This document shows positions 4,270-45,580 of a stretch of DNA of 64,000 nt, in pieces. Position 1 is the stretch's first letter. The number at the start of each line of letters is the position of its first letter. This DNA comes from Escherichia phage vB_EcoM_CUA3: the sequence record PP410321; one strand, 5' to 3'. Under the pieces are notes generated by a model. The model saw only the letters and a program-made list of their open reading frames with translations, ran no database searches and was not told where the DNA came from. Position numbers and translations under genes: made by a program.

Positions 4270-4271
4270 TT

Positions 4272-4515: not shown

Positions 4516-4519
4516 TATT

Positions 4520-4594
4520 TGGCGGACATGCATGGATTCGAACCATGGACCAATTGATTAACAGTCAACTGCTCTACCACTGAGCTACACATCC
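4520..4594 (-). tRNA. tRNA-Asn (anticodon GUU)
   Basis: Manual fold: acceptor GGATGTG/CATGTCC, D-arm GCTC-AGTGGTA-GAGC, anticodon loop CTGTTAA, T-arm CATGG-TTCGAAT-CCATG, encoded CCA; 75 nt. Confidence 0.8.
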
Positions 4595-4598
4595 AAAT

Positions 4599-4672
4599 TG
4601 GTGGCCCTGGGTGGAATCGAACCACCATCCAGCGATTATGAGTCGCTCGCTTGACCGTCCAGCTACAGGGCC
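4599..4672 (-). tRNA. tRNA with CAU anticodon (Ile2/lysidine-type or Met)
   Basis: Manual fold: acceptor GGCCCTG/CAGGGCC, anticodon stem-loop AGCGA-CTCATAA-TCGCT (resembles the E. coli tRNA-Ile2 anticodon arm), T-arm GGTGG-TTCGATT-CCACC, encoded CCA; D-arm atypical. Confidence 0.65.
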
Positions 4673-5577
4673 TTAATTNNNNNNNNNNNNNNNNNNNNNN
4701 NNNNNNNNNNNNNNNNNNNNNNNNNNNNNNNNNNNNNNNNNNNNNNNNNNNNNNNNNNNNNNNNNNNNNNNNNNNNNNNNNNNNNNNNNNNNNNNNNNNN
4801 NNNNNNNNNNNNNNNNNNNNNNNNNNNNNNNNNNNNNNNNNNNNNNNNNNNNNNNNNNNNNNNNNNNNNNNNNNNNNNNNNNNNNNNNNNNNNNNNNNNN
4901 NNNNNNNNNNNNNNNNNNNNNNNNNNNNNNNNNNNNNNNNNNNNNNNNNNNNNNNNNNNNNNNNNNNNNNNNNNNNNNNNNNNNNNNNNNNNNTCTATTA
5001 TGAAAGGCTCTTTGAGTGAAGAACCTTTGGTAATAGAGGGTATTAATGATAGAGTAATAATATCATATAATTCTTAAAGCATATTAANNNNNNNNNNNNN
5101 NNNNNNNNNNNNNNNNNNNNNNNNNNNNNNNNNNNNNNNNNNNNNNNNNNNNNNNNNNNNNNNNNNNNNNNNNNNNNNNNNNNNNNNNNNNNNNNNNNNN
5201 NNNNNNNNNNNNNNNNNNNNNNNNNNNNNNNNNNNNNNNNNNNNNNNNNNNNNNNNNNNNNNNNNNNNNNNNNNNNNNNNNNNNNNNNNNNNNNNNNNNN
5301 NNNNNNNNNNNNNNNNNNNNNNNNNNNNNNNNNNNNNNNNNNNNNNNNNNNNNNNNNNNNNNNNNNNNNNNNNNNNNNNNNNNNNNNNNNNNNNNNNNNN
5401 NNNNNNNNNNNNNNNNNNNNNNNNNNNNNNNNNNNNNNNNNNNNNNNNNNNNNNNNNNNNNNNNNNNNNNNNNNNNNNNNNNNNNNNNNNNNNNNNNNNN
5501 NNNNNNNNNNNNNNNNNNNNNNNNNNNNNNNNNNNNNNNNNNNNNNNNNNNNNNNNNNCATATTAATATAGTCAAGT

Positions 5578-5837
5578 TTAATAGAAGCAATCTTTAAAGG
5601 ATTTTTAAAGATGTCGTATTCGACCAATCCATTTTCAGTTGCGGTATAAAAAGTAAAGTTGACAGAATTATAACGATGGCTGTTAACTTTGAGTTTAACA
5701 CCGCTTGAACTACGGCCAATATTAACCTGTTGAACATCAAGCACAGCATCTTTGCCGTAATTTCGAATCAACAACTCGGCTGCAACCTGATCGGATTTAT
5801 ATCCATTCTCTGGATTAGTAACCTTAACGTATAACAT
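5578..5837 (-). CDS. hypothetical protein, N-terminal part only (C-terminal part masked)
   Basis: Minus ORF starting ATG 5835-5837 (MLYVKVTNPENGYK...); reads into the N run 5088-5558. Confidence 0.4.
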
Positions 5838-6023
5838 TTAACCCTCGTCTACAATAGTGTGGGTATTGGCATTAACAATCTGCCACCAGTCAAAACGATT
5901 GGAACCATAACAAGGCTTATTCTCGTTTTCTTTAATGATATCGCGCAGTTCATCTTCAGNGAAGCCTTTNGCGATTAAGTCAGCATAACCGCCACGAGGG
6001 TAATAGTTATCACCCGCAAACAA
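5838..6023 (-). CDS. hypothetical protein, C-terminal fragment (N-terminal part masked)
   Basis: Open frame ending at stop 5838-5840 (...NRFDWWQIVNANTHTIVDEG); upstream portion lies in N run 6026-6238. Confidence 0.35.
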   Translation of the reverse strand: MFAGDNYYPRGGYADLIXKGFXEDELRDIIKENENKPCYGSNRFDWWQIVNANTHTIVDEG

Positions 6024-6238
6024 AANNNNNNNNNNNNNNNNNNNNNNNNNNNNNNNNNNNNNNNNNNNNNNNNNNNNNNNNNNNNNNNNNNNNNNNNNNN
6101 NNNNNNNNNNNNNNNNNNNNNNNNNNNNNNNNNNNNNNNNNNNNNNNNNNNNNNNNNNNNNNNNNNNNNNNNNNNNNNNNNNNNNNNNNNNNNNNNNNNN
6201 NNNNNNNNNNNNNNNNNNNNNNNNNNNNNNNNNNNNNN

Positions 6239-6424
6239 TTACTCACCTTTAGAGATTTTATCCATAACGAAAGAGATTGAACCAATTAAGAATGCCACTA
6301 CTAAAGAGATTGTATTCTCGGAAGTTGTAAGCAAATCCAACATGAATCCTGCAAACATACTAAAGCCAAAAGCAGTAACAGCGGCCAGTGCAGTAACATT
6401 TCTAATTAATTCGCAACGTTTCAT
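6239..6424 (-). CDS. small predicted membrane protein (61 aa)
   Basis: ORF track; two hydrophobic segments ([33 protein letters not shown]); conserved promoter/leader motif copy immediately upstream. Confidence 0.5.
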   Translation of the reverse strand: MKRCELIRNVTALAAVTAFGFSMFAGFMLDLLTTSENTISLVVAFLIGSISFVMDKISKGE

Positions 6425-6445
6425 TTTATTATCCNNNNNCTCATN

Positions 6446-6469
6446 TGTTTTGATAGGGCTATAGTATCA
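6446..6469 (-). promoter_or_regulatory. conserved promoter/leader motif, copy 2 (one substitution)
   Basis: tgttttgatagggctatagtatca; same element as 3552-3576 and 6812-6836. Confidence 0.4.
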
Positions 6470-6764
6470 NNNNNNNNNNNNNNNNNNNNNNNNNNNNNNN
6501 NNNNNNNNNNNNNNNNNNNNNNNNNNNNNNNNNNNNNNNNNNNNNNNNNNNNNNNNNNNNNNNNNNNNNNNNNNNNNNNNNNNNNNNNNNNNNNNNNNNN
6601 NNNNNNNNNNNNNNNNNNNNNNNNNNNNNNNNNNNNNNNNNNNNNNNNNNNNNNNNNNNNNNNNNNNNNNNNNNNNNNNNNNNNNNNNNNNNNNNNNNNN
6701 NNNNNNNNNNNNNNNNNNNNNNNNNNNNNNNNNNNNNNNNNNNNNNNNNNNNNNNNNNNNNNNN

Positions 6765-6786
6765 TAAATTCTTGATAAGTTTTCAT
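6765..6786 (-). CDS. internal protein (IP) gene, visible N-terminus only: MKTYQEF capsid-targeting sequence
   Basis: ATG at 6784-6786 followed by codons for K-T-Y-Q-E-F; I recall MKTYQEFIAE as the N-terminal capsid targeting sequence of T4 internal proteins; gene body masked by N (6470-6764). Confidence 0.55.
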
Positions 6787-6811
6787 TTTNNNGTTTCCAT
6801 TTGGTTNNNTT

Positions 6812-6836
6812 TGTTTTGATAGGTCTATAGTATCAT
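6812..6836 (-). promoter_or_regulatory. conserved promoter/leader motif, copy 3, upstream of the IP gene
   Basis: tgttttgataggtctatagtatcat, identical to copy 1. Confidence 0.4.
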
Positions 6837-7072
6837 NNNTATAGNCCTTGTAAANAACTTTTNNNNNNNNNNNNNNNNNNNNNNNNNNNNNNNNNNNNNN
6901 NNNNNNNNNNNNNNNNNNNNNNNNNNNNNNNNNNNNNNNNNNNNNNNNNNNNNNNNNNNNNNNNNNNNNNNNNNNNNNNNNNNNNNNNNNNNNNNNNNNN
7001 NNNNNNNNNNNNNNNNNNNNNNNNNNNNNNNNNNNNNNNNNNNNNNNNNNNNNNNNNNNNNNNNNNNNNNTT

Positions 7073-7780
<708 letters not shown>

Positions 7781-7788
<8 letters not shown>

Positions 7789-8542
7789 TTTTATTTCCTA
7801 ATAATTTATCAATAGTAGTGTATAGTTCAGAAAGAGTGCCGTTATTTTCAACAACAACGTCACCAGGTAAAATTGGTAGACCCGCTTCAGTGATGTGCGA
7901 GTCTTGTACTTGACCGGTTTCAGCGCGAACTACATGAATAATCGTAGCACCCATCGCTCTGAGCGAATCAATTTCGTGTGTTTGACGAACATCAGGTACG
8001 ACATAGTATTTCGCATCAGAGTATATTTTATCAAAATAGTCTAAAGCGAACAACTTAACCCAATACATCTTATCAAATTGGTTAACAATAATATCAGTCC
8101 CAAGGGTCTGCATGAGACGACGTACTGACCAATTGTTATTTTTATTTATTACTTCAAACAGCTGGTCTTTTGTTTCTTCAGACAGATACTGAACTGGGGT
8201 AAGACCATAATGATACGCGGTACGAACATCAATTCCTGGAATAGGAAGGATATTATTCAGCTTAACAATAGCATGTTCAAAGATATCAATAACATCATAT
8301 GGTTTTAAAGGAAGGGCTTCTTCACGGTCATAACCGATGCCTTCAAAACAATTAAAATCCAATTTAGGCATATAGCTACGGTCGAATACAGGGTCATCAG
8401 ATATGTATTCATAAGCTTCAGCCAGATACTTTTTAATAGGACCCGCGAGTTGGAATTTTACAGAATCCATATTCTCAATTACATAGTTAGCAACGGTATC
8501 CTTACCGCTACGTTTGATTCCTACAATTGATATTAGTTTCAT
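7781..8542 (-). CDS. 1: gp1 deoxynucleoside monophosphate kinase
   Basis: MKLISIVGIKRSGKDT P-loop-like N-terminus and synteny (between 57A and 3); stop/start overlaps with neighbours. Confidence 0.85.
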
Positions 8543-11140: not shown

Positions 11141-12882
11141 TGATTAACATGTCTGATAACGTAAGTTGGTTCGTCGGTGTAGTTGAAGACCGAATGGACC
11201 CGCTCCAACAGGGCCGAGTACGCGTACGCGTATGGGGTATGCACCCGTATGAAAAAGTACAGGGCCCTGTAAAAGGCCTTCGTACAGAAGATTTACCATG
11301 GATGTCGGTATTAATGCCCACATCTTCTGCCTCTGTTTCAGGTATACAAACCGCTATGACAGGTATGGTCCCAGGTACACAAGTTTACGGACACTTTCTT
11401 GATAAGTGGAAATTAAACGGGCTTGTCCTAGGTACATATGGTTCAGCTTCAAAACAAAAGGCAAATCCAAACGAAGGTTTTAGCGACCCCACAGGACAGT
11501 ATCCACTTTATTTAGGTAATGATGCCGCTGCACTAAACCGAGGTGGTGAAGTTGGATACGACGCCACTTCTAACGTAATACAAGATGCAAACACTGATGT
11601 GGGTATTAATCCCGATGGGTTGGATTTAAGCCAAGTTAAGCCTGATGATAATCCTAATTTCACAATAGAAAACATGCTTCATCGTGATGAGGGTCTTCGT
11701 CTTAAGGTATATTGGGACACTGAAGGATATCCTACCATAGGTATAGGTCACCTTATTACTCCACAACCTATTAGAGATATGAATCAAATAAACAAAATAT
11801 TATCTAATCAAATAGGTCGTGAAGTTAAAGGAAACCCGGGTGCAATATCAATGGACGAGGCTTCTAAATTATTCCAAGAAGACCTTAAAAAAGTCCAGAG
11901 CGATATAGGCCGTCACAGTGTCGTAGGTCCGGTTTACAATAAAGAAAACCGTTCGAGACAAATGGCCCTTGAAAACATGGCTTTCCAAATGGGGTTAGGC
12001 GGGCTTGCTAAATTNNNNNNNNNNNNNNNNNNNNNNNNNNNNNNNNNNNNNNNNNNNNNNNNNNNNNNNGCTCGTAATTCAGTATGGTTTAACCAAACTA
12101 AGGGACGTGCCTCAAGGGTATCAATGATTATTCTTACCGGTAATATGGAATCATACGGTATTATGGCCCCTAAAGAAAGAGAATTTAATGGCCGTTCTTA
12201 TAGGATGATTCAAACCTTTGCGGCCCCTACAAATTCAGACCCGGCCGACCCATGGACTCCGGAAGATACAAGGATTCTTTTTAAAGAGCCAGATTCCAGT
12301 TATAAAGGCGAATATCCATATGTCCAAACTATGCAAACTGAAGGCGGGCATATCCAAGAATTCGATAACACCCCAGGGCAAGAACGTTACCGATTAATTC
12401 ACCCTACAGGTAGTTATGAAGAAGTTGCTCCTGACGGACGTAAAACTTCTAAGACTGTAGCCGATGGATATTATATGACCCAAGGCGATTCCAATACTTA
12501 TGTTGGTGGTAATAATAAAGTCAATATAGGTGGTGATGAAACCTATTATAATATGGCAAACGTTCGACGTCAAACTGACGGTTCTGAAAGCATTCATATT
12601 CGTGGTAATGAAACCAAAACGGTAGAAGGTGACGGAACCCTTATTGTTAAAGGAAATGTTACGGTTATTGTTGAAGGTAATGCCGATATAACTGTTAAAG
12701 GTGATGCAAAAACCTTAGTCGAAGGCAACCATGATTATACAGTAAATGGAAATGTTAAGTGGTCGGTAAATGGAAACGTTGATATGACTGTTGCCGGTAA
12801 TTGGTCTGAAACTATGTCAACAATGAGTTCAATTGCATCTGGACAATATACTATTGATGGTTCGAGGATTGACATTGGCTAA
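11140..12882 (+). CDS. 5: gp5 baseplate hub subunit and tail lysozyme
   Basis: 580 aa; N-terminal OB-fold region, lysozyme-like middle and C-terminal beta-helix repeats (VKGNVTVIVEGNADITVKGDAKTLVEGNHDYTVNGNVKWSVNGNVDMTV); short N run inside. Confidence 0.95.
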   Translation: MINMSDNVSWFVGVVEDRMDPLQQGRVRVRVWGMHPYEKVQGPVKGLRTEDLPWMSVLMPTSSASVSGIQTAMTGMVPGTQVYGHFLDKWKLNGLVLGTYGSASKQKANPNEGFSDPTGQYPLYLGNDAAALNRGGEVGYDATSNVIQDANTDVGINPDGLDLSQVKPDDNPNFTIENMLHRDEGLRLKVYWDTEGYPTIGIGHLITPQPIRDMNQINKILSNQIGREVKGNPGAISMDEASKLFQEDLKKVQSDIGRHSVVGPVYNKENRSRQMALENMAFQMGLGGLAKXXXXXXXXXXXXXXXXXXXARNSVWFNQTKGRASRVSMIILTGNMESYGIMAPKEREFNGRSYRMIQTFAAPTNSDPADPWTPEDTRILFKEPDSSYKGEYPYVQTMQTEGGHIQEFDNTPGQERYRLIHPTGSYEEVAPDGRKTSKTVADGYYMTQGDSNTYVGGNNKVNIGGDETYYNMANVRRQTDGSESIHIRGNETKTVEGDGTLIVKGNVTVIVEGNADITVKGDAKTLVEGNHDYTVNGNVKWSVNGNVDMTVAGNWSETMSTMSSIASGQYTIDGSRIDIG

Positions 12883-12892
12883 TATTCTACCT

Positions 12893-13368
12893 ATGAGCAC
12901 GGATTTAGGAGACTCCATGGAAGGAGCCTCAATCGATGTTACGTTTACCGCTCAATTAGAAACAAACGAAACATTAGTCGAAATAAATATAACAGAATAT
13001 GAGCCAACAGAAGGCATTATTGTCGATGGGGCTCGTTTATATGGAACCTATGAATCAGTATTTGGATTCTCTGAAGATGCGTTAAAATACCGATTAGGCG
13101 ATGAATTTAAAACAGCCGGTTCATGGAAAGATTTACCAGAGGACAAGAGCACTCAATTATACCTCTGGAAAGCCCCTGGTAATCTCCAGAAGACTTTTTC
13201 CTATACCGTCACATTAATCTATGACTTCCAAGAAGAGTCATCAGGAGGTGATACAGGGAGCTCAGGAGGAAGTAATTCTAGAGCCGGTAGTGAAACCGAC
13301 CCTCCTCCAGCACCAGTAAGAAAAACTCTTACTAAGGTCTATACAAAGGTTATAGTAGGTAATTGGAG
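12893..13368 (+). CDS. 5.1: gp5.1-like protein, N-terminal part (rest masked)
   Basis: ATG at 12893 directly after gene 5 stop; frame runs into N block 13369-14009. Confidence 0.5.
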
Positions 13369-14014
13369 NNNNNNNNNNNNNNNNNNNNNNNNNNNNNNNN
13401 NNNNNNNNNNNNNNNNNNNNNNNNNNNNNNNNNNNNNNNNNNNNNNNNNNNNNNNNNNNNNNNNNNNNNNNNNNNNNNNNNNNNNNNNNNNNNNNNNNNN
13501 NNNNNNNNNNNNNNNNNNNNNNNNNNNNNNNNNNNNNNNNNNNNNNNNNNNNNNNNNNNNNNNNNNNNNNNNNNNNNNNNNNNNNNNNNNNNNNNNNNNN
13601 NNNNNNNNNNNNNNNNNNNNNNNNNNNNNNNNNNNNNNNNNNNNNNNNNNNNNNNNNNNNNNNNNNNNNNNNNNNNNNNNNNNNNNNNNNNNNNNNNNNN
13701 NNNNNNNNNNNNNNNNNNNNNNNNNNNNNNNNNNNNNNNNNNNNNNNNNNNNNNNNNNNNNNNNNNNNNNNNNNNNNNNNNNNNNNNNNNNNNNNNNNNN
13801 NNNNNNNNNNNNNNNNNNNNNNNNNNNNNNNNNNNNNNNNNNNNNNNNNNNNNNNNNNNNNNNNNNNNNNNNNNNNNNNNNNNNNNNNNNNNNNNNNNNN
13901 NNNNNNNNNNNNNNNNNNNNNNNNNNNNNNNNNNNNNNNNNNNNNNNNNNNNNNNNNNNNNNNNNNNNNNNNNNNNNNNNNNNNNNNNNNNNNNNNNNNN
14001 NNNNNNNNNCNATA

Positions 14015-21384: not shown

Positions 21385-23195
21385 TGAAACAAGAATTAAA
21401 AATAGGCCCCGCCGTTGATGATGGCTCCGGAGATTACCTGCGTGCAGGTGGTCTAAAAATCAATAATAACTTTAANGAGNNNNNNNNNNNNNNNNNNNNN
21501 NNNNNNNNNNNNNNNNNNNNNNNNNNNNNNNNNNNNNNNNNNNNNNNNNNNNNNNNNNNNNNNNNNNNNNNNNNNNNNNNNNNNNNNNNNNNNNNNNNNN
21601 NNNNNNNNNNNATTAACGTTCAGCTTCCTAAAGGCACCCCTTCAGAATATAACTTTGTAATTCGTTTGCGTGACGTTTATTCTTCTTGGCAAGCAAACCC
21701 TGTAACNNNNNNNNNNNNNNNNNNNNNNNNNNNNNNNNNNNNNNNNNNNNNNNNNNNNNNNNNNNNNNNNNNNNNNGACCTTGAACTTGTTTACTGTGCA
21801 CCGGGTCGCTGGGAATATGTCGAGAACAAACAAGTTAACCGTATTCCNAATAACGACCTAGCTACTGTAGCAACCAAACAGTTTATTGCTACNGAAGGCC
21901 AAACTGANNNNNNNNNNNNNNNNNNNNNNNNNNNNNNNNNNNNNNNNNNNNNNNNNNNNNNNNNNNNNNNNNNNNNNNNNNNNNNNNNNNNNNNNNNNNN
22001 NNNNNNNNNNNNNNNNNNNNNNNNNNNNNNNNNNNNNNNNNNNNNNNNNNNNNNNNNNNNNNNNNNNNNNNNNNNNNNNNNNNNNNNNNNNNNNNNNNNN
22101 NNNNNNNNNNNNNNNNNNNNNNNNNNNNNNNNNNNNNNNNNNNNNNNNNNNNNNNNNNNNNNNNNNNNNNNNNNNNNNNNNNNNNNNNNNNNNNNNNNNN
22201 NNNNNNNNNNNNNNNNNNNNNNNNNNNNNNNNNNNNNNNNNNNNNNNNNNNNNNNNNNNNNNNNNNNNNNNNNNNNNNNNNNNNNNNNNNNNNNNNNNNN
22301 NNNNNNNNNNNNNNNNNNNNNNNNNNNNNNNNNNNNNNNNNNNNNNNNNNNNNNNNNNNNNNNNNNNNNNNNNNNNNNNNNNNNNNNNNNNNNNNNNNNN
22401 NNNNNNNNNNNNNNNNNNNNNNNNNNNNNNNNNNNNNNNNNNNNNNNNNNNNNNNNNNNNNNNNNNNNNNNNNNNNNNNNNNNNNNNNNNNNNNNNNNNN
22501 NNNNNNNNNNNNNNNNNNNNNNNNNNNNNNNNNNNNNNNNNNNNNNNNNNNNNNNNNNNNNNNNNNNNNNNNNNNNNNNNNNNNNNNNNNNNNNNNNNNN
22601 NNNNNNNNNNNNNNNNNNNNNNNNNNNNNNNNNNNNNNNNGGCCAGGTTCGTATTACTGATGTGGATAATCCNNNNNNNNNNNNNNNNNNNNNNNNNNNN
22701 NNNNNNNNNNNNNNNNNNNNNNNNNNNNNNNNNNNNNNNNNNNNNNNNNNNNNNNNNNNNNNNNNNNNNGAGAACACAGTGAACCCTAATAACCCTGCAA
22801 CTTATATGGGNNNNNNNNNNNNNNNNNNNNNNNNNNNNNNNNNNNNNNNNNNNNNNNNNNNNNNNNNNNNNNNNNNNNNNNNNNNNNNNNNNNNNNNNNN
22901 NNNNNNNNNNNNNNNNNNNNNNNNNNNNNNNNNNNNNNNNNNNNNNNNNNNNNNNNNNNNNNNNNNNNNNNNNNNNNNNNNNNNNNNNNNNNNNNNNNNN
23001 NNNNNNNNNNNTGATGATAACNNNGGCCCTATTGTTATCGGTGGATGTTTGGTAGACCCGGATGCGCAAGGTCCTGCTTATACCAAATATCGTGAAGATA
23101 AAGCNNNNNNNNNNNNNNNNNNNNNNNNNNNNNNNNNNNNNNNNNNNNNNNNNNNNNNNNNNNNAACCGTTTATCGCTGGGTGAGGATTGCGTAA
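21384..23195 (+). CDS. 10: gp10 baseplate wedge subunit and tail pin
   Basis: 603 codons, matching T4 gp10 length; about 60 percent of the gene is N-masked. Confidence 0.7.
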   Translation: MKQELKIGPAVDDGSGDYLRAGGLKINNNFXEXXXXXXXXXXXXXXXXXXXXXXXXXXXXXXXXXXXXXXXXXXXXINVQLPKGTPSEYNFVIRLRDVYSSWQANPVXXXXXXXXXXXXXXXXXXXXXXXXDLELVYCAPGRWEYVENKQVNRIXNNDLATVATKQFIAXEGQTXXXXXXXXXXXXXXXXXXXXXXXXXXXXXXXXXXXXXXXXXXXXXXXXXXXXXXXXXXXXXXXXXXXXXXXXXXXXXXXXXXXXXXXXXXXXXXXXXXXXXXXXXXXXXXXXXXXXXXXXXXXXXXXXXXXXXXXXXXXXXXXXXXXXXXXXXXXXXXXXXXXXXXXXXXXXXXXXXXXXXXXXXXXXXXXXXXXXXXXXXXXXXXXXXXXXXXXXXXXXXXXXXXXXXXXXXXXXXXXXXXXXXGQVRITDVDNXXXXXXXXXXXXXXXXXXXXXXXXXXXXXXXXXENTVNPNNPATYMXXXXXXXXXXXXXXXXXXXXXXXXXXXXXXXXXXXXXXXXXXXXXXXXXXXXXXXXXXXXXXXXXXXXDDNXGPIVIGGCLVDPDAQGPAYTKYREDKXXXXXXXXXXXXXXXXXXXXXTVYRWVRIA

Positions 23196-23860
23196 TGACT
23201 TTAACAGAAATGAAAAGCGGGTTAAAATCCCGCNTNGCCGACTNNNNNNNNNNNNNNNNNNNNNNNNNNNNNNNNNNNNNNNNNNNNNNNNNNNNNNNNN
23301 NNNNNNNNNNNNNNGCAAACCAAACCCAAAAAGGTGTTTATTATCCTACAGTCCAAAGTGCTATTGATGATATTGCNNNNNNNNNNNNNNNNNNNNNNNN
23401 NNNNNNNNNNNNNNNNNNNGAAAACAGAGCACCGGGCTTTATTCAACAATCAGATNNNNNNNNNNNNNNNNNNNNNNNNNNNNNNNNNNNNNNNNNNNNN
23501 NNNNNNNNNNNNNNNNNNNNNNNNNNNNNNNNNNNNNNNNNNNNNNNNNNNNNNNNNNNNNNNNNNNNNNNNNNNNNNNNNNNNNNNNNNNNNNNNNNNN
23601 NNATTGCCAATAGTTATATTTTAGCAGAAACCTCTATTGACNNNNNNNNNNNNNNNNNNNNNNNNNNNNNNNNNNNNNNNNNNNNNNNNNNNNNNNNNNN
23701 NNNNNNNNNNNNNNNNNNNNNNNNNNNNNNNNNNNNNNNNNNNNNNNNNNNNNNNNNNNNNNNNNNNNNNNNNNNNNNNNNNNNNNNNNNNNNNNNNNNN
23801 NNNNNNNNNNNNNNNNNNNNNNNNNNNNNNNCTTTATATCACTATAAGCGAGTAAGTTAA
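23195..23860 (+). CDS. 11: gp11 baseplate wedge subunit and tail pin
   Basis: 221 codons (T4 gp11 219); heavily masked; stop/start overlaps with genes 10 and 12. Confidence 0.7.
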   Translation: MTLTEMKSGLKSRXADXXXXXXXXXXXXXXXXXXXXXXXXANQTQKGVYYPTVQSAIDDIXXXXXXXXXXXXXXXENRAPGFIQQSDXXXXXXXXXXXXXXXXXXXXXXXXXXXXXXXXXXXXXXXXXXXXXXXXXIANSYILAETSIDXXXXXXXXXXXXXXXXXXXXXXXXXXXXXXXXXXXXXXXXXXXXXXXXXXXXXXXXXXXXXXXXLYHYKRVS

Positions 23861-25245
23861 TGTCTACAAATACACTAAAACATATAAGTGATAAATCAGA
23901 ATTTAAAACATTCGACCCTACTGGGTCGAATTTNNNNNNNNNNNNNNNNNNNNNNNNNNNNNNNNNNNNNNNNNNNNNNNNNNNNNNNNNNNNNNNNNNN
24001 NNNNNNNNNNNNNNNNNNNNNNNNNNNNNNNNNNNNNNNNNNNNNNNNNNNNNNNNNNNNNNNNNNNNNNNNNNNNNNNNNNNTGCTGTGACCCCGGCTA
24101 CTTTAAAAGGCCGCTTGGACATTCCTACTCAAGCAACTGAAACCTATGTAGGTATCACCCGTTATGCTACTAATGACGAGGCCATCGCTGGGACAGAGAC
24201 CCAGGCGGCAATCGTAGCATCATCTTTGAAGGCNNNNNNNNNNNNNNNNNNNNNNNNNNNNNNNNNNNNNNNNNNNNNNNNNNNNNNNNNNNNNNNNNNN
24301 NNNNNNNNNNNNNNNNNNNNNNNNNNNNNNNNNNNNNNNNNNNNNNNNNNNNNNNNNNNNNNNNNNNNNNNNNNNNNNNNNNNNNNNNNNNNNNNNNNNN
24401 NNNNNNNNNNNNNNNNNNNNNNNNNNNNNNNNNNNNNNNNNNNNNNNNNNNNNNNNNNNNNNNNNNNNNNNNNNNNNNNNNNNNNNNNNNNNNNNNNNNN
24501 NNNNNNNNNNNNNNNNNNNNNNNNNNNNNNNNNNNNNNNNNNNNNNNNNNNNNNNNNNNNNNNNNNNNNNNNNNNNNNNNNNNNNNNNNNNNNNNNNNNN
24601 NNNNNNNNNNNNNNNNNNNNNNNNNNNNNNNNNNNNNNNNNNNNNNNNNNNNNNNNNNNNNNNNNNNNNNNNNNNNNNNNNNNNNNNNNNNNNNNNNNNN
24701 NNNNNNNNNNNNNNNNNNNNNNNNNNNNNNNNNNNNNNNNNNNNNNNACTTTAAACGTTAACGGTACTTTACGTCGTAATNNNNNNNNNNNNNNNNNNNN
24801 NNNNNNNNNNNNNNNNNNNNNNNNNNNNNNNNNNNNNNNNNNNNNNNNNNNNNNNNNNNNNNNNNNNNNNNNNNNNNNNNNNNNNNNNNNNNNNNNNNNN
24901 NNNNNNNNNNNNNNNNNNNNNNNNNNNNNNNNNNNNNNNNNNNNNNNNNNNNNNNNNNNNNNNNNNNNNNNNNNNNNNNNNNNNNNNNNNNNNNNNNNNN
25001 NNNNNNNNNNNNNNNNNNNNNNNNNNNNNNNNNNNNNNNNNNNNNNNNNNNNNNNNNNNNNNNNNNNNNNNNNNNNNNNNNNNNNNNNNNNNNNNNNNNN
25101 NNNNNNNNNNNNNNNNNNNNNNNNNNNNNNNCGTTTCCATAAACATGCCGGTGGTTTTGGTGAACATGATAACGCAGGTGCTTTTGGTAACACNNCTAAC
25201 NNNNNNNNNNNNGGTACTCGTAAAGGACTAGACTGGGATAACCGT
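23860..25245 (+). CDS. 12: gp12 short tail fibre, N-terminal and middle parts visible (3' end unresolved)
   Basis: MSTNTLKHISDKSEFKTFDPTGSN and AVTPATLKGRLDIPTQATETYVGITRYATNDEAIAG match the T4 gp12 N-terminus as recalled; the end lies in masked sequence. Confidence 0.8.
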
Positions 25246-26349
25246 NNNNNNNNNNNNNNNNNNNNNNNNNNNNNNNNNNNNNNNNNNNNNNNNNNNNNNN
25301 NNNNNNNNNNNNNNNNNNNNNNNNNNNNNNNNNNNNNNNNNNNNNNNNNNNNNNNNNNNNNNNNNNNNNNNNNNNNNNNNNNNNNNNNNNNNNNNNNNNN
25401 NNNNNNNNNNNNNNNNNNNNNNNNNNNNNNNNNNNNNNNNNNNNNNNNNNNNNNNNNNNNNNNNNNNNNNNNNNNNNNNNNNNNNNNNNNNNNNNNNNNN
25501 NNNNNNNNNNNNNNNNNNNNNNNNNNNNNNNNNNNNNNNNNNNNNNNNNNNNNNNNNNNNNNNNNNNNNNNNNNNNNNNNNNNNNNNNNNNNNNNNNNNN
25601 NNNNNNNNNNNNNNNNNNNNNNNNNNNNNNNNNNNNNNNNNNNNNNNNNNNNNNNNNNNNNNNNNNNNNNNNNNNNNNNNNNNNNNNNNNNNNNNNNNNN
25701 NNNNNNNNNNNNNNNNNNNNNNNNNNNNNNNNNNNNNNNNNNNNNNNNNNNNNNNNNNNNNNNNNNNNNNNNNNNNNNNNNNNNNNNNNNNNNNNNNNNN
25801 NNNNNNNNNNNNNNNNNNNNNNNNNNNNNNNNNNNNNNNNNNNNNNNNNNNNNNNNNNNNNNNNNNNNNNNNNNNNNNNNNNNNNNNNNNNNNNNNNNNN
25901 NNNNNNNNNNNNNNNNNNNNNNNNNNNNNNNNNNNNNNNNNNNNNNNNNNNNNNNNNNNNNNNNNNNNNNNNNNNNNNNNNNNNNNNNNNNNNNNNNNNN
26001 NNNNNNNNNNNNNNNNNNNNNNNNNNNNNNNNNNNNNNNNNNNNNNNNNNNNNNNNNNNNNNNNNNNNNNGGTCCACATATTGATACGGTAGGTAAACAA
26101 CCGGCNTANNNNNNNNNNNNNNNNNNNNNNNNNNNNNNNNNNNNNNNNNNNNNNNNNNNNNNNNNNNNNNNNNNNNNNNNNNNNNNNNNNNNNNNNNNNN
26201 NNNNNNNNNNNNNNNNNNNNNNNNNNNNNNNNNNNNNNNNNNNNNNNNNNNNNNNNNNNNNNNNNNNNNNNNNNNNNNNNNNNNNNNNNNNNNNNNNNNN
26301 NNNNNNNNNNNNNNNNNNNNNNNNNNNNNNNNNNNNNNNNNNNNNNNNN

Positions 26350-27795
26350 CGTACTGATGTTAATGAGTTAAAAACCATAGTTGGTGCTAGTTCANNNNNN
26401 NNNNNNNNNNNNNNNNNNNNNNNNNNNNNNNNNNNNNNNNNNNNNNNNNNNNNNNNNNNNNNNNNNNNNNNNNNNNNNNNNNNNNNNNNNNNNNNNNNNN
26501 NNNNNNNNNNNNNNNNNNNNNNNNNNNNNNNNNNNNNNNNNNNNNNNNNNNNNNNNNNNNNNNNNNNNNNNNNNNNNNNNNNNNNNNNNNNNNNNNNNNN
26601 NNNNNNNNNNNNNNNNNNNNNNNNNNNNNNNNNNNNNNNNNNNNNNNNNNNNNNNNNNNNNNNNNNNNNNNNNNNNNNNNNNNNNNNNNNNNNNNNNNNN
26701 NNNNNNNNNNNNNNNNNNNNNNNNNNNNNNNNNNNNNNNNNNNNNNNNNNNNNNNNNNNNNNNNNNNNNNNNNNNNNNNNNNNNNNNNNNNNNNNNNNNN
26801 NNNNNNNNNNNNNNNNNNNNNNNNNNNNNNNNNNNNNNNNNNNNNNNNNNNNNNNNNNNNNNNNNNNNNNNNNNNNNNNNNNNNNNNNNNNNNNNNNNNN
26901 NNNNNNNNNNNNNNNNNNNNNNNNNNNNNNNNNNNNNNNNNNNNNNNNNNNNNNNNNNNNNNNNNNNNNNNNNNNNNNNNNNNNNNNNNNNNNNNNNNNN
27001 NNNNNNNNNNNNNNNNNNNNNNNNNNNNNNNNNNNNNNNNNNNNNNNNNNNNNNNNNNNNNNNNNNNNNNNNNNNNNNNNNNNNNNNNNNCCTATTAAAG
27101 CCGATATAACCAAGAATAAAGGTGATATCGTTACTTTAACTGGACGAGTAGCAGCTAATGAAGGCGAAATTACTGATATTAAANTNGATACCGCNAAAAT
27201 AGCTCCTTTAACAACTNNNNNNNNNNNNNNNNNNNNNNNNNNNNNNNNNNNNNNNNNNNNNNNNNNNNNTGTTAAAGTCGAATCCGATAAAGTAGAAGGA
27301 ATTGATACTCGNNNNNNNNNNNNNNNNNNNNNNNNNNNNNNNNNNNNNNNNNNNNNNNNNNNNNNNNNNNNNNNNNNNNNNNNNNNNNNNNNNNNNNNNN
27401 NNNNNNNNNNNNNNNNNNNNNNNNNNNNNNNNNNNNNNNNNNNNNNNNNNNNNNNNNNNNNNNNNNNTGAAGGTAAAGTTAGTACTCTTGAAACGGGCTT
27501 AGCCGCCGTTAAAGTTGAATCGGATAAAGTNGNAGGAATNAATACCCGTTTAGGTACGGTCGAAGGTAAAGTTGGTACTCTTGAAACAGGTTTGGCTGCA
27601 GTTAAAGTTGAATCTGATAAAGTGGCAGGATTAACTACTCGCTTATCTGCGGCTGAAGCTAAAATCACTGCCTTAGAAACAGAATTAGCTAAACGTCCAC
27701 CGGTGGCTCCTGCTGCAGACGGACTTCCGTATGTTCTGGTTGATAACGCATGGGTATTATTGTCTGATTTTGTGACTTTAAATCCAGCACCATAA
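26350..27795 (+). CDS. wac: wac fibritin (whisker), C-terminal part with foldon-like end (5' end unresolved)
   Basis: Coiled-coil repeats ending in ...DGLPYVLVDNAWVLLSDFV, resembling the T4 fibritin foldon (…GEWVLLSTFL); followed by terminator and the gene 13 late promoter. Confidence 0.75.
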   Translation, partial: RTDVNELKTIVGASSXXXXXXXXXXXXXXXXXXXXXXXXXXXXXXXXXXXXXXXXXXXXXXXXXXXXXXXXXXXXXXXXXXXXXXXXXXXXXXXXXXXXXXXXXXXXXXXXXXXXXXXXXXXXXXXXXXXXXXXXXXXXXXXXXXXXXXXXXXXXXXXXXXXXXXXXXXXXXXXXXXXXXXXXXXXXXXXXXXXXXXXXXXXXXXXXXXXXXXXXXXXXXXXXXXXXXXXXXXXXXXXXXXXXXXXXPIKADITKNKGDIVTLTGRVAANEGEITDIKXDTXKIAPLTTXXXXXXXXXXXXXXXXXXVKVESDKVEGIDTXXXXXXXXXXXXXXXXXXXXXXXXXXXXXXXXXXXXXXXXXXXXXXXXXXXXXEGKVSTLETGLAAVKVESDKXXGXNTRLGTVEGKVGTLETGLAAVKVESDKVAGLTTRLSAAEAKITALETELAKRPPVAPAADGLPYVLVDNAWVLLSDFVTLNPAP

Positions 27796-27796
27796 T

Positions 27797-27818
27797 AAAA
27801 GGGCTTCGGCCCTTTTTT
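27797..27818 (+). terminator. intrinsic terminator after wac
   Basis: aaaa-gggc-ttcg-gccc-tttttt hairpin plus T run. Confidence 0.65.
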
Positions 27819-27820
27819 GC

Positions 27821-27828
27821 TATAAATA
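27821..27828 (+). promoter_or_regulatory. late promoter TATAAATA for gene 13
   Basis: Exact TATAAATA 22 nt upstream of the gp13 ATG. Confidence 0.7.
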
Positions 27829-27849
27829 CGGTTATTAGAGGAATAAAAC

Positions 27850-28785
27850 ATGGCAAGTGAATCATTTAACCCTAAGCAACTCAAGGACGCTATTCTGCGC
27901 CGCCTGGGTGCACCGATTACAAATATTGAAGTAACTACAGACCAAGTATACGATTGCATCCAGCGCGCTCTAGAGCTCTACGGTGAATACCATTATAACG
28001 GATATAACAAAGGCTACCAGGCTTTTTATATCGGCCATGACGATGAAGAAAAATTCCGTAATGGTGTATTTGACCTTAAAGGACGTAATATATTTGCAGT
28101 AACACAAATTTTGAGAACTAATGTTGGTTCGTTAACATCTATGGACGGGCAAGCAACCTATCCGTGGTTTACTGATTTTGTATTAGGTTTAGCTGGGATT
28201 AATGGCGGCCTTGGGTCTTCATGTAATAGTTTTGGGCCTAATGCCTTCGGTGCCGACCTTGGTTATTTTACCCAGCTAATGCAATACCGTTCTATGATGC
28301 AAGACCTTTTAGTTCCACTCCCGGATTATTGGTATAATGATGCCACAGAACAATTGAAGGTAATGGGTAACTTCGTTAAAGGCGATTTTATTGTAATTGA
28401 AGTTTATACTCGCTCTTTTAATGGGGTAGATTCTATGGTTGGAAATACCGTAGGCTATGGTTATGCTTCNNNNGGCNGTGGTGAAAATGAATGGAGTCCT
28501 GGTGCTATTTGGGATAACCCAGCTCGTCGTATTTCCGGTATGCGTGTAGGCGAGGACCTTGGCCTTCAAGACGGTGCATATAATAACCGTTGGGTTAAAG
28601 ATTATGCCACTGCATTGGTTAAAGAAGTCAATGGCAATATTCTAGCCAAACACCAAGGCATGCAACTTGCAGGTGGAACCACTGTAGATGGTATTCGATT
28701 GATTGAAGAAGCTCGTTTAGAAAAAGAACGTCTTCGTGAAGAATTAGATTTGCTCGACCCACCAACACCTATTTTAATTGGATAA
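27850..28785 (+). CDS. 13: gp13 neck protein
   Basis: 311 aa; strong match to T4 gp13 as recalled (…[37 protein letters not shown]…). Confidence 0.95.
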
Positions 28786-28787
28786 TT

Positions 28788-29561
28788 ATGGCTACTTTCG
28801 ATTCGAGTTTATTCGCTAAGCTAGAAGATAATACTGGCTATGCTAATACGAACGAAACTGAAATAATGAACCCATTCGTCAACTTTTATCGCCATGAGAA
28901 TACCCAAACATTGGCTGATGCTTTAGTTGCTGAGTCTATTCAAATGCGTGGTATCGAGCTTTATTATATACCACGTGAATATGTTAAACCAGACCAACTA
29001 TTTGGCGAAGACCTTCAGAACAAATTTACTAAAGCCTGGAAGTTTGCAGGTTATTTGGATTCCTTTGAAGGTTATTCCGGTGACAATACTTATTTCAGTA
29101 AGTTCGGTATGATGGTTAATGATGAAGTAACAATCACAATTAACCCTAACCTTTTTAAACATCAATGTAATGGTACTGAACCTGTTTCAGGTGACTTGAT
29201 TTATTTCCCTATGGACAACAGTCTATTTGAAATTAATTGGGTTCAACCTTACGACCCGTTCTATCAAGTTGGTACAAACGTCCAGCGTCGTATTACTGCT
29301 ACCAAGTTCATTTATAACGGTGAAGAACTTCGTCCTGAATTACAGAGAAATGAAGGCATTAATATTCCTGAATTCAGTGAGCTTGATTTAATGCCTGTTA
29401 AAAATATCGACGGGTTGGCTGATATCTCTGATATCCAATATGAAGAGGTTAATGAGATTAATGCTGAAGCAGAGGAATTCGTACATCCTTATGTGGTGAT
29501 TAATGGTAGAGGAGAAGATGCTCCTCCTACAGCATTTGATGATGCTTTTTTAGATGATTAA
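28788..29561 (+). CDS. 14: gp14 neck protein
   Basis: 257 aa (T4 gp14 256); synteny. Confidence 0.9.
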
Positions 29562-29568
29562 ATAATAC

Positions 29569-29590
29569 ATGGCGCATAGTGCGCCATTTT
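29569..29590 (+). terminator. stem-loop terminator after gene 14
   Basis: atggcgc-atagt-gcgccat hairpin followed by ttt. Confidence 0.5.
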
Positions 29591-29600
29591 AGGAGGTTTG

Positions 29601-30463
29601 ATGTTTGGACATTGGTATAATAGTTCGCTACGTCGCTATATTGTTTTGATGGGTGATTTATTTTCCCATGTTCAAGTAGCACGTCAAAGAGAAGATACAG
29701 GGCTTAAATTTATTAAGGTTCCTATTACGTATGCTTCTAAAGAAAGATTTATGGCTAATTTAGGTAAGTGGACAGCAGTACAGAATATCCCAAATCCTAA
29801 TATGTCCCCAAAAGAAAGGGCTGAACAAAAAGCTAAAGTGGAAACTGTTCTTCCACGTATGAACCTTCAAATGGTTGACATGCTTTATAACTCACAATAC
29901 AAAACGGCTCTTCAAAATAGAACACAAATTCAATTTGAGAATGGAGACCCTCGGAAAAGAGTCAGCCAATATTCTCCTACTCCAGTAAAAATGATTTTTG
30001 AACTGGGTATTTACACTAGAACTCAAGATGATATGTTCCAGATTGTGGAACAAATTATGCCGTATTTCCAACCTCACTTTAATACAACAATTACCGAACT
30101 CTATACAAACGAAATTAAATTTGACCGTGATATTCGTATTGTGTTCCAATCTATAGCAATGGACGAACAATTAGAAGGTGATACCACTTCACGTCGTCGC
30201 TTAGAATGGTCTATGATGTTTGAGGTTAACGGATGGTTATATCCTCCTGTTAAAGAAATGGAAGGCGAAATCAAAACCATTTATCTTGATTTCTTTGCCA
30301 ACTCTAAAGAACTCGCTCCTGAAGGTAATTTTGAATCGGTTGATAGCGAAGTAGTTCCTAGAGGTGTAGAAGAAAAAGAATGGGATGGTAAGTCCATTCA
30401 AACGTATTCACAAGATATTCCGGTGCCTGTTGAACCAGAACCTCCAGCACCAAGGAGAAACCC

Positions 30464-30467
<4 letters not shown>
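29601..30467 (+). CDS. 15: gp15 tail sheath stabiliser / tail terminator
   Basis: Match to T4 gp15 (MFG..YNSS.RRY…[17 protein letters not shown]…); track start 29598 is TTG, ATG at 29601 follows AGGAGG. Confidence 0.95.
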
Positions 30468-32777
<2,310 letters not shown>

Positions 32778-43880: not shown

Positions 43881-44885
43881 TTTGGATACTAATTCAATCC
43901 ATACAGCTCGTAGCGTATCTTTAACACACTCAATGAGCTGCTTTTTAACTTCAACAGGATTTTCGGCATCGGTTAATTCTAATTCTTCACGGGCCGCTTC
44001 TTCCAAAATATCTTGGACCGTCAGTCCCATTACCTTTCCAAAATCTTTAGGTGATACTTCACCAATCTTACTGATAACATTGTTAATACGGTTAACAGTC
44101 ACATAATCAGTGAATTGCCACATCAAGTCCATATCGTCTTGGGACAATACCACTGCAACTTTAATAGGCTTGTCAGACTTTTTCTTCTCGCTGAATTTAG
44201 AGTTCTTACATTTAATCGCTACACGATTTCCATTAGGAAGCCAGATTGGAACATCAGGTTTCAGTACAAAGCCTTCAGCCGTAAATACTTTACCTTCAAC
44301 CTTAGGAATAAAATCAGTCGAGTTAGCAATGGTTAAACCTGCATTATCCACTGCAAAATTATAATCTGGGATAACAGAATCAAAATCATTTGGAAGTTTA
44401 ATAAGGTCTTCAAAGCTACCTGTGGCTAAGCATGGAGCAACCTTAAACTTATGGATAATACAGAAAGCTTCCATAAGGGTATCAGTTAGAACAGATTCGG
44501 TGCCATCTTCTTTAGTAACACGGATATCAAATACATAAAAGTCTTTATCGCCGTAATCCACATTCTTCTGGATACCTGTACCAGCGAACTCACCATAAAT
44601 TTGATATGACTGATAATTAATAGATTCGATTAGATGTTGAACAGATTTAATAGAATCAGCATAGTTCTTAAGTACGATTTCATAGCCGTAGAAATCTTCA
44701 GCAGGGAGAATTGGTCCGGTGCGCTTGGCGCATGTGACTGCGTCACGTTCTATGATTAAACTAAAGTTGGTTCCATGAATCTTCTCACGTGCTACCCATT
44801 CACCGCCAGTCAAACCATTAATACGGAGTTTTTCAATAAACTTATTGTTGTAGTGGTTTTCCAGACTGCTATATTTCTTGAACAT
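43878..44885 (-). CDS. rnlB: RNA ligase 2 (Rnl2)
   Basis: About 335 aa; EKIHGTNFS lysine-containing ligase motif near the N-terminus; length and position match T4 rnlB; ATG at 44883-44885 abuts an N run. Confidence 0.85.
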
Positions 44886-45370
44886 ANNNNNNNNNNNNNN
44901 NNNNNNNNNNNNNNNNNNNNNNNNNNNNNNNNNNNNNNNNNNNNNNNNNNNNNNNNNNNNNNNNNNNNNNNNNNNNNNNNNNNNNNNNNNNNNNNNNNNN
45001 NNNNNNNNNNNNNNNNNNNNNNNNNNNNNNNNNNNNNNNNNNNNNNNNNNNNNNNNNNNNNNNNNNNNNNNNNNNNNNNNNNNNNNNNNNNNNNNNNNNN
45101 NNNNNNNNNNNNNNNNNNNNNNNNNNNNNNNNNNNNNNNNNNNNNNNNNNNNNNNNNNNNNNNNNNNNNNNNNNNNNNNNNNNNNNNNNNNNNNNNNNNN
45201 NNNNNNNNNNNNNNNNNNNNNNNNNNNNNNNNNNNNNNNNNNNNNNNNNNNNNNNNNAATCACCATAATAAATATAATTAAATAGAAGAGTTAGTATTCT
45301 TCTGTCACCAAGCCAAATGGTTTAACGGAAGGACCTAGACCCATTATAACACATCTAAATTTAAAGCATA

Positions 45371-45580
45371 TTACTTTGAACCAGAACGCGCTTTGCGCCG
45401 AACCTTATTGNNNNNNNNNNNNNNNNNNNNNNNNNNNNNNNNNNNNNNNNNNNNNNNNNNNNNNNNNNNNNNNNNNNNNNNNNNNNNNNNNNNNNNNNNN
45501 NNNNNNNNNNNNAATTTTTTAGCAATATCAATAAAATTCATACCAGATTCATGTAAAAAATGTACTTTAATCTTATCCAT
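45371..45580 (-). CDS. small hypothetical protein, largely masked
   Basis: ORF track: MDKIKVHFLHESGMNFIDIAKK … NKVRRKARSGSK with an N block between; weak. Confidence 0.3.
   Translation of the reverse strand: MDKIKVHFLHESGMNFIDIAKKXXXXXXXXXXXXXXXXXXXXXXXXXXXXXXXXXXXNKVRRKARSGSK

What the first reader, a model, noticed from the sequence alone, without database searches (positions are those of the whole stretch)
23860..27795. gp12-wac interval is ~0.9 kb longer than in T4 and every unmasked island is in one open frame
From the gp12 ATG (23860) to the wac stop (27795) is 1311 codons, whereas T4 gp12 plus wac total about 1014. All nine unmasked islands across 3.9 kb are in the same frame without a stop, including fragments GPHIDTVGKQP (26071-26103) and RTDVNELKTIVGASS (26350-26394) that I cannot place in either protein. 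Either the receptor-binding short tail fibre or fibritin is substantially expanded here, or an additional in-frame gene sits between them. The region determines adsorption and is mostly hidden by N.
Basis: seen in the sequence. Interest (0 to 1): 0.45.

Follow-up and report, generated by a model that had tools for sequence, protein, structure and literature searches.

The report
Ordinary gp12 plus long JS98-type fibritin
The 3.9-kb "single open frame" is two ordinary adjacent phage genes, a normal-length short tail fibre gene and a long neck-whisker (fibritin) gene of a type already described in JS98-like coliphages, whose stop and start codons are hidden by the N mask.

Summary
The window is a Dhakavirus, a JS98-like T-even coliphage about 96% identical to phage dhabil. 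The interval 23860-27795 is 1311 codons against 1014 in T4, and every unmasked island is stop-free in one frame (0 internal stops, against 25 and 50 in the other two frames).

It is not one gene, and nothing is inserted. At one fixed offset all islands align without a gap to phage JS10. There the same 3936 nt hold gp12 (508 aa), a 9-nt spacer with stop and ribosome-binding site, and wac (799 aa). Predicted here: gp12 23860-25386 and wac 25396-27795. The gp12 stop and wac ATG lie under N.

The shared frame follows from the 9-nt spacer found in 9 of 10 relatives checked. All of the extra 0.9 kb is in fibritin. gp12 is 19 aa shorter than in T4.

The long fibritin is the published JS98 type: a T4-like body with an internal foldon-like motif, a coiled-coil spacer of variable length, and a terminal foldon. 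Wac lengths in relatives run from 689 to 827 aa. The finding is already known and of low interest.

The parts
23860..25386 (+). Gene 12, short tail fibre, predicted 508 aa. The ATG is visible at 23860 and overlaps the gp11 stop (TAATG). The stop is predicted at 25384-25386 and is masked.
   Evidence: Islands are 97-100% identical in DNA to gp12 of dhabil, CLB_P2 and dhaeg. They are gap-free collinear with JS10 gp12, which is 508 aa. The end coordinate is inferred from that collinearity and is not seen.
25132..25245 (+). Visible piece of the gp12 C-terminal receptor-binding domain (RFHKHAGGFGEHDNAGAFGNT.N....GTRKGLDWDNR).
   Evidence: Pfam PF14928 S_tail_recep_bd, E=2.3e-14, profile positions 12-48 of 93. 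It aligns to T4 gp12 residues 444-480, including H445-K-H447.
25387..25395 (+). Predicted 9-nt spacer between the gp12 stop and the wac ATG, carrying the wac ribosome-binding site. Entirely masked.
   Evidence: Relatives read TAAGGAAATAAAATG (dhabil, CLB_P2, dhaeg) or TAAGGGTAAAAAATG (JS98, JS10). The spacer is 9 nt in 9 of 10 relatives.
25396..27795 (+). wac, JS98-type fibritin (collar and whisker fibre), predicted 799 aa. The ATG is masked. The stop TAA at 27793-27795 is visible.
   Evidence: The interval length equals JS10 (wac 799 aa) with a constant offset across all islands. The C-terminal 108 aa are 94% identical to wac of IME08 and JS10.
25396..26757 (+). T4-homologous fibritin body (wac residues 1 to about 454). 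It includes the visible fragments GPHIDTVGKQP (26071-26103, residue 226) and RTDVNELKTIVGASS (26350-26394, residue 319).
   Evidence: T4 wac 6-477 aligns to JS98 wac 7-449 at 35% identity. Full-length T4 fibritin structures 3j2o and 2bsg match JS10 wac 5-429, E about 1e-72. Both islands are 100% identical in DNA to CLB_P2 and dhabil wac over the aligned stretch.
26680..26739 (+). Predicted internal foldon-like motif (JS10: GKLGDAPSDGKLYARRNAAW). Masked in the window.
   Evidence: Pfam Fibritin_C matches JS98 wac 371-454, in the middle of the protein. The motif aligns to the T4 foldon. It is described as the first of two foldon motifs in PMC3797505. In the window it is inferred only.
27232..27654 (+). 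Variable tandem zone of the coiled-coil spacer. Predicted units are 31+31+17+31+31 aa: U1 27232-27324, U2 27325-27417, partial unit 27418-27468, U3 27469-27561, U4 27562-27654. U3, U4 and part of U1 are visible.
   Evidence: U3 and U4 share 74 of 90 readable nt. JS10 and IME08 have the same 31+31+17+31+31 layout, and TRF finds periods of 93 and 51 nt in JS10. The visible start of U3 at 27469 falls where JS10 predicts.
27697..27792 (+). Terminal foldon-like trimerisation motif (PPVAPAADGLPYVLVDNAWVLLSDFVTLNPAP). Fully visible.
   Evidence: It aligns to the T4 foldon [27 protein letters not shown].
27797..27816 (+). GC-rich hairpin followed by a T run, directly after the wac stop. Probable intrinsic terminator.
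   Evidence: Folded as RNA, dG is -11.1 kcal/mol with z = -2.6. The simple consensus scanner did not list it.
27821..27828 (+). TATAAATA, the T4-type late promoter motif, 22 nt upstream of the gene 13 ATG (27850).
   Evidence: Exact match. The motif occurs 17 times in the window against 6.3 expected.

Best explanation
The interval holds two separate, adjacent late structural genes of a JS98-like (Dhakavirus) T-even phage. The first is gene 12, about 508 aa. It encodes the trimeric short tail fibre that binds the host LPS core irreversibly through its C-terminal domain carrying the HxH motif. The second is wac, about 799 aa, which encodes the trimeric collar and whisker fibre fibritin. A 9-nt spacer carrying the wac ribosome-binding site separates them. 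Because gp12 plus stop plus spacer comes to 512 codons, the wac ATG falls in the gp12 frame. With the stop masked, the two genes therefore read as one 1311-codon frame. All the extra length over T4 lies in wac, which is the published JS98-type fibritin. It has a T4-like N-terminal and coiled-coil body ending in an internal foldon-like motif. After that comes a coiled-coil spacer of about 310 aa, whose last third is a tandem array of 31-aa units with partial units. A second, terminal foldon nucleates trimerisation. The number of units changes among close relatives, probably through unequal recombination or slippage between the 93-nt repeats. The window carries the JS10/IME08 layout of 31+31+17+31+31. 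By analogy with T4, the protein would help attach and retract the long tail fibres. A whisker roughly 1.6 times as long as T4's is an inference from sequence only.
For: - Identity of the phage and synteny gp9-10-11-12-wac-13-14-15-16.
- All 12 islands between 23832 and 27900 align gap-free to JS10 at a single offset, 955 of 1062 nt identical. JS10 has gp12 508 aa, a 9-nt spacer and wac 799 aa, 3936 nt in total, exactly the window's interval.
- Against dhabil, CLB_P2 and dhaeg the only offset changes are -6 nt inside gp12 (between 24780 and 25132) and a gain inside the wac repeat zone (between 27311 and 27468).
- The window's own island 25132-25245 hits the gp12 receptor-binding domain PF14928 and aligns to T4 gp12 444-480 with the HKH motif.
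- The terminal foldon and two 93-nt units are visible in the window.
- T4 fibritin aligns only to the first 450 or so residues of the Dhakavirus protein, and Pfam Fibritin_C lies mid-protein.
- Wac length in ten relatives is 689, 720, 720, 734, 751, 768, 772, 799, 799 and 827 aa. Sequences are printed for nine of them, and in those all variation lies after residue 600.
- Letarov & Krisch 2013 (PMC3797505) describe JS98-type fibritin as having two T4-like foldon motifs separated by a coiled-coil spacer of variable length that folds through the foldons.
Against: - 76% of the interval is masked. The gp12 stop, the spacer, the wac ATG, the wac N-terminal domain, the internal foldon motif and about 1.5 repeat units are not seen; they are inferred from spacing and relatives.
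- The source genome could not be recovered. Exact look-ups of gp13, gp14 and gp16 found nothing, and neither did the exact-pattern scans of viral contigs and metagenome contigs.
- A replacement of equal length inside a masked block cannot be strictly excluded.
- The function of the extension is untested here. The cited paper says it is unclear whether fibritin variants share T4's dual role.
Confidence: 0.95

Rival explanations
1. An additional gene, for example a homing endonuclease or an accessory fibre or chaperone gene, lies between gp12 and wac or inside the masked blocks and accounts for the extra 0.9 kb.
For: Mobile insertions do occur near this locus in relatives. MX01 carries a 'putative endonuclease' among the features under its match spanning wac to gene 16, and that match is split into two pieces, as is ESCO10's. 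The largest masked block, 25246-26070 (825 nt), is unseen.
Against: Island offsets against JS10 never change. Against dhabil, CLB_P2 and dhaeg the offset is constant from 25135 in the gp12 C-terminus to 27311 in wac, so no net insertion lies between the genes. The only gain, 237 nt over dhabil or 144 nt over JS98, lies inside the in-frame 31-aa repeat zone. It is fully explained by the JS10/IME08 unit pattern. None of the ten relatives has a gene between 12 and wac.
Confidence: 0.02
2. gp12, the receptor-binding short tail fibre, is the expanded protein.
For: None beyond the total length. gp12 does show allelic variation in its C-terminal part.
Against: The gp12 receptor-binding-domain island lies at codons 425-462 from the ATG, exactly as in the 508-aa JS98 and JS10 proteins. 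Islands from 26071 onward are wac sequence. That leaves room for only about 508 codons of gp12.
Confidence: 0.01
3. gp12 and wac are really translated as one fusion protein, by stop-codon readthrough or loss of the stop in this phage. The conserved shared frame would then be functional.
For: The wac ATG is in the gp12 frame in 9 of 10 relatives. The stop codon itself is masked in the window.
Against: JS98 and JS10 have two in-frame stops in the spacer (TAA GGG TAA), and the others have one TAA. The spacer carries a ribosome-binding site and ATG for independent initiation. IME08 has a 10-nt spacer that puts wac in a different frame. In T4 the genes overlap out of frame. gp12 sits on the baseplate and fibritin on the neck (established T4 structure), so a fusion is structurally implausible.
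Confidence: 0.01

Closest known systems
Phage JS10 (NC_012741) gene 12 and wac
   Same: The layout and lengths are identical: gp12 508 aa, a 9-nt spacer and wac 799 aa, 3936 nt in total. The repeat-unit pattern 31+31+17+31+31 is the same. Alignment is gap-free at every island.
   Different: DNA identity in the islands is only 84-97%. The bodies of both genes in the window are closer to dhabil, CLB_P2 and dhaeg (97-100%). The window therefore combines a dhabil-like sequence with a JS10-like length.
JS98-type fibritin (Letarov & Krisch 2013, PMC3797505; Latypov et al. 2007 as cited there)
   Same: A T4-like fibritin body, two T4-like foldon motifs, and a coiled-coil spacer of variable length between them (seen in relatives; terminal foldon and spacer units seen in the window).
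   Different: Nothing categorical. The spacer here is 48 aa longer than in JS98 itself.
T4 fibritin (gp wac, 487 aa; PDB 1aa0, 2bsg, 3j2o)
   Same: A homologous N-terminal domain and segmented coiled coil (35% identity over about 450 aa) and the foldon motif. The gene sits in the same position between genes 12 and 13.
   Different: T4 ends at its single foldon. The Dhakavirus protein continues for about 345 aa more, with a coiled-coil spacer and a second foldon. T4 genes 12 and wac overlap by 4 nt in different frames.
T4 gp12 short tail fibre (527 aa)
   Same: 46% identity over the full length for the JS98 orthologue. The Pfam middle and receptor-binding domains are present. The HxH motif aligns with T4 His445/His447 in the window's own sequence.
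   Different: It is 19 aa shorter. The C-terminal domain is a patchwork of two Dhakavirus alleles.

Membership tests
T4-type short tail fibre gp12 | Gene position directly after gene 11 and before wac in the baseplate and tail-fibre late cluster | tested here: met
   The gp11 ORF 23195-23860 ends on the gp12 ATG. The same order is annotated in dhabil, JS98, JS10 and T4.
T4-type short tail fibre gp12 | C-terminal receptor-binding domain (Pfam PF14928) with the HxH motif. Its role in metal binding in T4 is from my own knowledge. | tested here: met
   Window island 25132-25245 hits PF14928 at E=2.3e-14. It aligns to T4 gp12 444-480 with HKH conserved.
T4-type short tail fibre gp12 | Full-length protein of about 500-530 aa with the gp12 middle domain (PF09089) | tested here: inconclusive
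   The middle domain and the stop are masked. A length of 508 aa is inferred from gap-free collinearity with JS10. PF09089 is found in the JS98 orthologue.
JS98-type fibritin (wac) | Conserved N-terminal neck-attachment domain (M..L..LPFVDG...) | not testable with these tools
   Positions 25396 to about 26070 are masked in the window. The domain is present in all relatives and the spacing is conserved.
JS98-type fibritin (wac) | Coiled-coil body homologous to T4 fibritin | tested here: met
   Islands 26071-26105 and 26350-26394 are 100% identical over the aligned stretch to CLB_P2 and dhabil wac. The corresponding JS10 residues align to T4 fibritin.
JS98-type fibritin (wac) | Internal, first foldon-like motif | not testable with these tools
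   The predicted position 26680-26739 is masked. In JS98 and CLB_P2, Pfam Fibritin_C maps to residues 371-454, and the motif aligns to the T4 foldon.
JS98-type fibritin (wac) | Coiled-coil spacer of variable length between the two foldons | tested here: met
   Two full 31-aa units and part of a third are visible at 27270-27654. The length polymorphism of 689-827 aa in relatives maps to this zone.
JS98-type fibritin (wac) | C-terminal, second T4-like foldon | tested here: met
   Visible at 27697-27792. ADGLPYVLVDNAWVLLSDF aligns to T4 [19 protein letters not shown].

The most novel reading that the evidence does not exclude
The most novel reading still open is modest. This phage would carry a previously unrecorded recombinant of the adsorption module. 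One part is a gp12 head domain patched from the dhabil-type and JS98-type alleles, with a breakpoint near 25194 and a 2-codon length change hidden in 24781-25131. The other is a dhabil-like wac body joined to a JS10/IME08-like repeat array. The masked segments could then hide a new receptor-binding variant that affects host range. A gp12-wac readthrough fusion is formally not excluded while the stop is masked, but it is very unlikely.
Probability: 0.35. Interest if true: 0.15.

Novelty: already known. Interest (0 to 1): 0.07.

Why it matters
It matters little. The result assigns correct gene boundaries in a heavily masked stretch. It also shows that the apparent 1311-codon frame is a masking artefact laid over a lineage-typical gene arrangement. 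The long fibritin with two foldons and a spacer of variable length is a described feature of JS98-like phages, and JS10 and IME08 have a wac of exactly the same length. The only residual value is as one more data point on two things. One is the repeat-number polymorphism of the fibritin spacer, now 689 to 827 aa across the relatives examined. The other is mosaicism in the gp12 receptor-binding domain.

Tried and rejected
**Recovering the masked DNA.** Exact-protein look-ups of the unmasked neighbours gp13, gp14 and gp16 found no record. Three exact-pattern scans of viral contigs and one of metagenome contigs, all using window-specific strings from the wac 3' end, found nothing. The source genome is apparently not in these collections, so the masked bases are inferred from relatives. 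I did not spend a 5.8-billion-protein search on it, because the verdict does not depend on it.

**Tandem repeats.** TRF on the window's repeat zone returned nothing because Ns break the array. I replaced it with a direct comparison of units and TRF on JS10.

**Terminator.** The consensus terminator scanner missed the hairpin after wac. Folding shows it.

**Terminal foldon in Pfam.** Pfam on the window's C-terminal 108 aa gave only a sub-threshold chance hit. Fibritin_C does not pick up the terminal foldon, so I showed that motif by pairwise alignment instead.

**Explanations rejected.** Expansion of gp12, an inserted ORF, and a readthrough fusion are all rejected (see the rival explanations).
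Full report
**1. What is in the sequence**

The interval 23860-27795 is 76% N. The ORF listing reports it as a 1311-aa ORF, but only because codons containing N are not stops. In the frame of the ATG at 23860 the visible sequence (about 288 codons) has no stop except the terminal TAA. The other two + frames have 25 and 50 stops.

T4 gp12 is 527 aa and wac is 487 aa. The two genes overlap by 4 nt in different frames and span 3044 nt.

**2. Which genome this is**

The unmasked DNA downstream (27468-30500) matches Dhakavirus genomes, the JS98-like T-even coliphages. The best matches are dhabil at 96.1% and CLB_P2 at 96.9%, with JS98, JS10, IME08 and others at 91-94%. All of them annotate the order gp9-10-11-12-wac-13-14-15-16.

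**3. Mapping the islands**

Against dhabil, CLB_P2 and dhaeg the offset between window and relative is constant from 23832 to 24780. It drops by 6 nt somewhere in the masked stretch 24781-25131, which lies inside gp12. It is then constant again from 25135 in the gp12 C-terminus to 27311 deep in wac. It changes again only inside the wac C-terminal repeat zone. There is therefore no net insertion between the two genes.

Against JS10 a single offset (23168) puts all 12 islands from 23832 to 27900 in register without any gap. Each island is 84-97% identical, 955 of 1062 nt overall. JS10 has gp12 of 508 aa, a 9-nt spacer and wac of 799 aa, 3936 nt from ATG to stop. This is exactly the window's interval.

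The predicted coordinates follow:
- gp12 at 23860-25386
- spacer at 25387-25395
- wac at 25396-27795

The junction (25375-25404) is entirely masked, which is why the two genes looked like one frame.

**4. Why the frame is shared**

In 9 of the 10 relatives examined the gp12 stop is followed by a 9-nt spacer. It reads TAAGGAAATAAAATG or TAAGGGTAAAAAATG and carries the wac ribosome-binding site, so the wac ATG lies in the gp12 frame. JS98 and JS10 even have two in-frame stops there. IME08 has a 10-nt spacer and a different frame. T4 also uses different frames. The shared frame is a lineage-fixed coincidence, not a continuous reading frame.

**5. Where the extra length is**

gp12 is 19 aa shorter than in T4. 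Its identity is shown directly in the window. Island 25132-25245 hits the Pfam short-tail-fibre receptor-binding domain PF14928 at E=2.3e-14. It aligns to T4 gp12 residues 444-480 with the H445-K-H447 motif conserved.

All of the gain, 312 aa, is in wac. T4 fibritin residues 6-477 align to only the first 450 or so residues of JS98 or CLB_P2 wac at 35% identity. The full-length T4 fibritin structures 3j2o and 2bsg match JS10 wac 5-429. Pfam Fibritin_C, the 'C-terminal region', maps to residues 371-454, in the middle of the protein.

That region ends in a foldon-like motif, GDAPSDGKLYARRNAAW. About 310 residues of coiled coil follow, with weak hits to coiled-coil families and to the tail needle gp26. 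Then comes a second foldon at the very C-terminus, which is visible in the window (ADGLPYVLVDNAWVLLSDF, 27697-27792).

In one search their JS10 counterparts align to diverged T4 segments, elgPkppsf-sQn and ttsieslngiVGentS.

**6. The variable zone**

Wac length among ten relatives is 689 (dhaeg), 720 (dhabil, IME540), 734 (UP19), 751 (JS98), 768 (EcWhh-1), 772 (CLB_P2), 799 (JS10, IME08) and 827 aa (Ec2-ASingh). In the nine relatives whose sequence from residue 600 was printed, all variation lies after that residue. IME540 lacks the KIAPLT landmark used to extract that tail, so its repeat zone was not examined. The variable zone is a tandem array of 31-aa units, EGKITTLETGLAAVKVESDKVAGINTRLGTA, with partial units of 7, 14 or 17 aa. 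TRF finds periods of 93 and 51 nt in JS10.

The window's odd gains, +79 codons over dhabil and +48 over JS98, equal the JS10/IME08 pattern of 31+31+17+31+31. The visible start of unit 3 at 27469 falls where that pattern predicts. Units 3 and 4 share 74 of 90 readable nt.

In sequence, both gene bodies in the window are dhabil- or CLB_P2-like (97-100%). The length layout is JS10-like, as expected for repeat-number change or recombination among close relatives.

**7. What is known**

Letarov & Krisch 2013 (PMC3797505) describe exactly this 'JS98-type' fibritin. It has two T4-like foldon motifs separated by a coiled-coil spacer that 'may vary in length'. It is derivable from, or convertible to, the T4 type by a single duplication or deletion, and it can trimerise through the foldon motifs alone. 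They also state that it is unclear whether variants keep T4's dual role in tail-fibre attachment and environmental sensing.

The mechanism I give is therefore partly inference. It comprises trimerisation nucleated by the foldon, a longer whisker, help with long-tail-fibre attachment and retraction, and gp12 binding LPS irreversibly. These steps are inferred from homology and from T4 biology, which I cite from established knowledge and did not test here.

**8. Limits**

The source genome could not be recovered. The following are inferred from spacing and relatives rather than seen:
- the gp12 stop
- the wac start
- the wac N-terminal domain
- the internal foldon motif
- about 48 residues of the repeat array

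An equal-length replacement under the mask cannot be strictly excluded, but nothing suggests one.

**9. Verdict**

The single open frame is a masking artefact. The feature is already known and is of low interest.

Noticed in passing
window 25132-25245, and masked 24781-25131: The gp12 receptor-binding domain looks like a patchwork of two Dhakavirus alleles. RFHKHAGGFGEHDNAGAFGN matches the dhabil, CLB_P2 and IME08 type. The partly masked next codons (ACN NCT AAC, i.e. T-?-N) fit the JS98/JS10 type T-A-N and not T-V-R. The window also lacks 2 codons relative to its closest relatives somewhere in 24781-25131.
   Followed up: partly
window 27797-27828: A hairpin, AAAGGGCUUCGGCCCUUU plus a T run (dG -11.1 kcal/mol), lies right after the wac stop. 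It is followed by TATAAATA, the T4 late-promoter motif, 22 nt before the gene 13 ATG. TATAAATA occurs 17 times in the window against 6.3 expected, mostly on the + strand between 32 and 42 kb. The consensus terminator scan missed the hairpin.
   Followed up: partly
window 24162-27959, minus strand: the ORF listing reports a 1265-aa minus-strand 'ORF' across the same masked stretch. It is a masking artefact. One antisense frame has only 3 stops in the visible parts. The IME540 record annotates an antisense 'hypothetical protein' over the wac repeat zone (L009 3787-4791), which looks spurious for the same reason.
   Followed up: partly
L007 (IME08 NC_014260) 2159-2228: The IME08 record starts wac 59 nt inside gp12. 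The conserved MI[DN]KL start gives a 799-aa wac after a 10-nt spacer, making IME08 the only relative with wac out of frame with gp12. This may be a 1-nt sequencing or annotation issue.
   Followed up: no
MX01 (NC_031934) and ESCO10 (OM386655), wac to gene 16 region: Their matches to window 27468-30500 (wac 3' end to gene 16) are each split in two pieces and span about 600 nt more than the query. MX01 lists a 'putative endonuclease' among the features under its match, so an insertion lies somewhere in that stretch. Its exact position was not checked. The window has only a 54-nt wac-gene 13 intergenic region.
   Followed up: no
L012 (Ec2-ASingh PQ561418), wac residues 600-827: This is the longest wac seen, 827 aa. 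It carries an extra copy of the segment VDTAKIAPLTTRVTT inside the repeat array. CLB_P2 and UP19 show irregular unit fusions (EGKITTAEGKITTLESGLAAVEGEV...). These are footprints of unequal recombination within the array.
   Followed up: partly
window 4001-8000, 12001-14000, 22001-28000, 44001-48000: Masking is concentrated in a few blocks, up to 86% N per 2 kb. Most of 28-40 kb and 48-62 kb is unmasked. The other heavily masked blocks were not examined.
   Followed up: no
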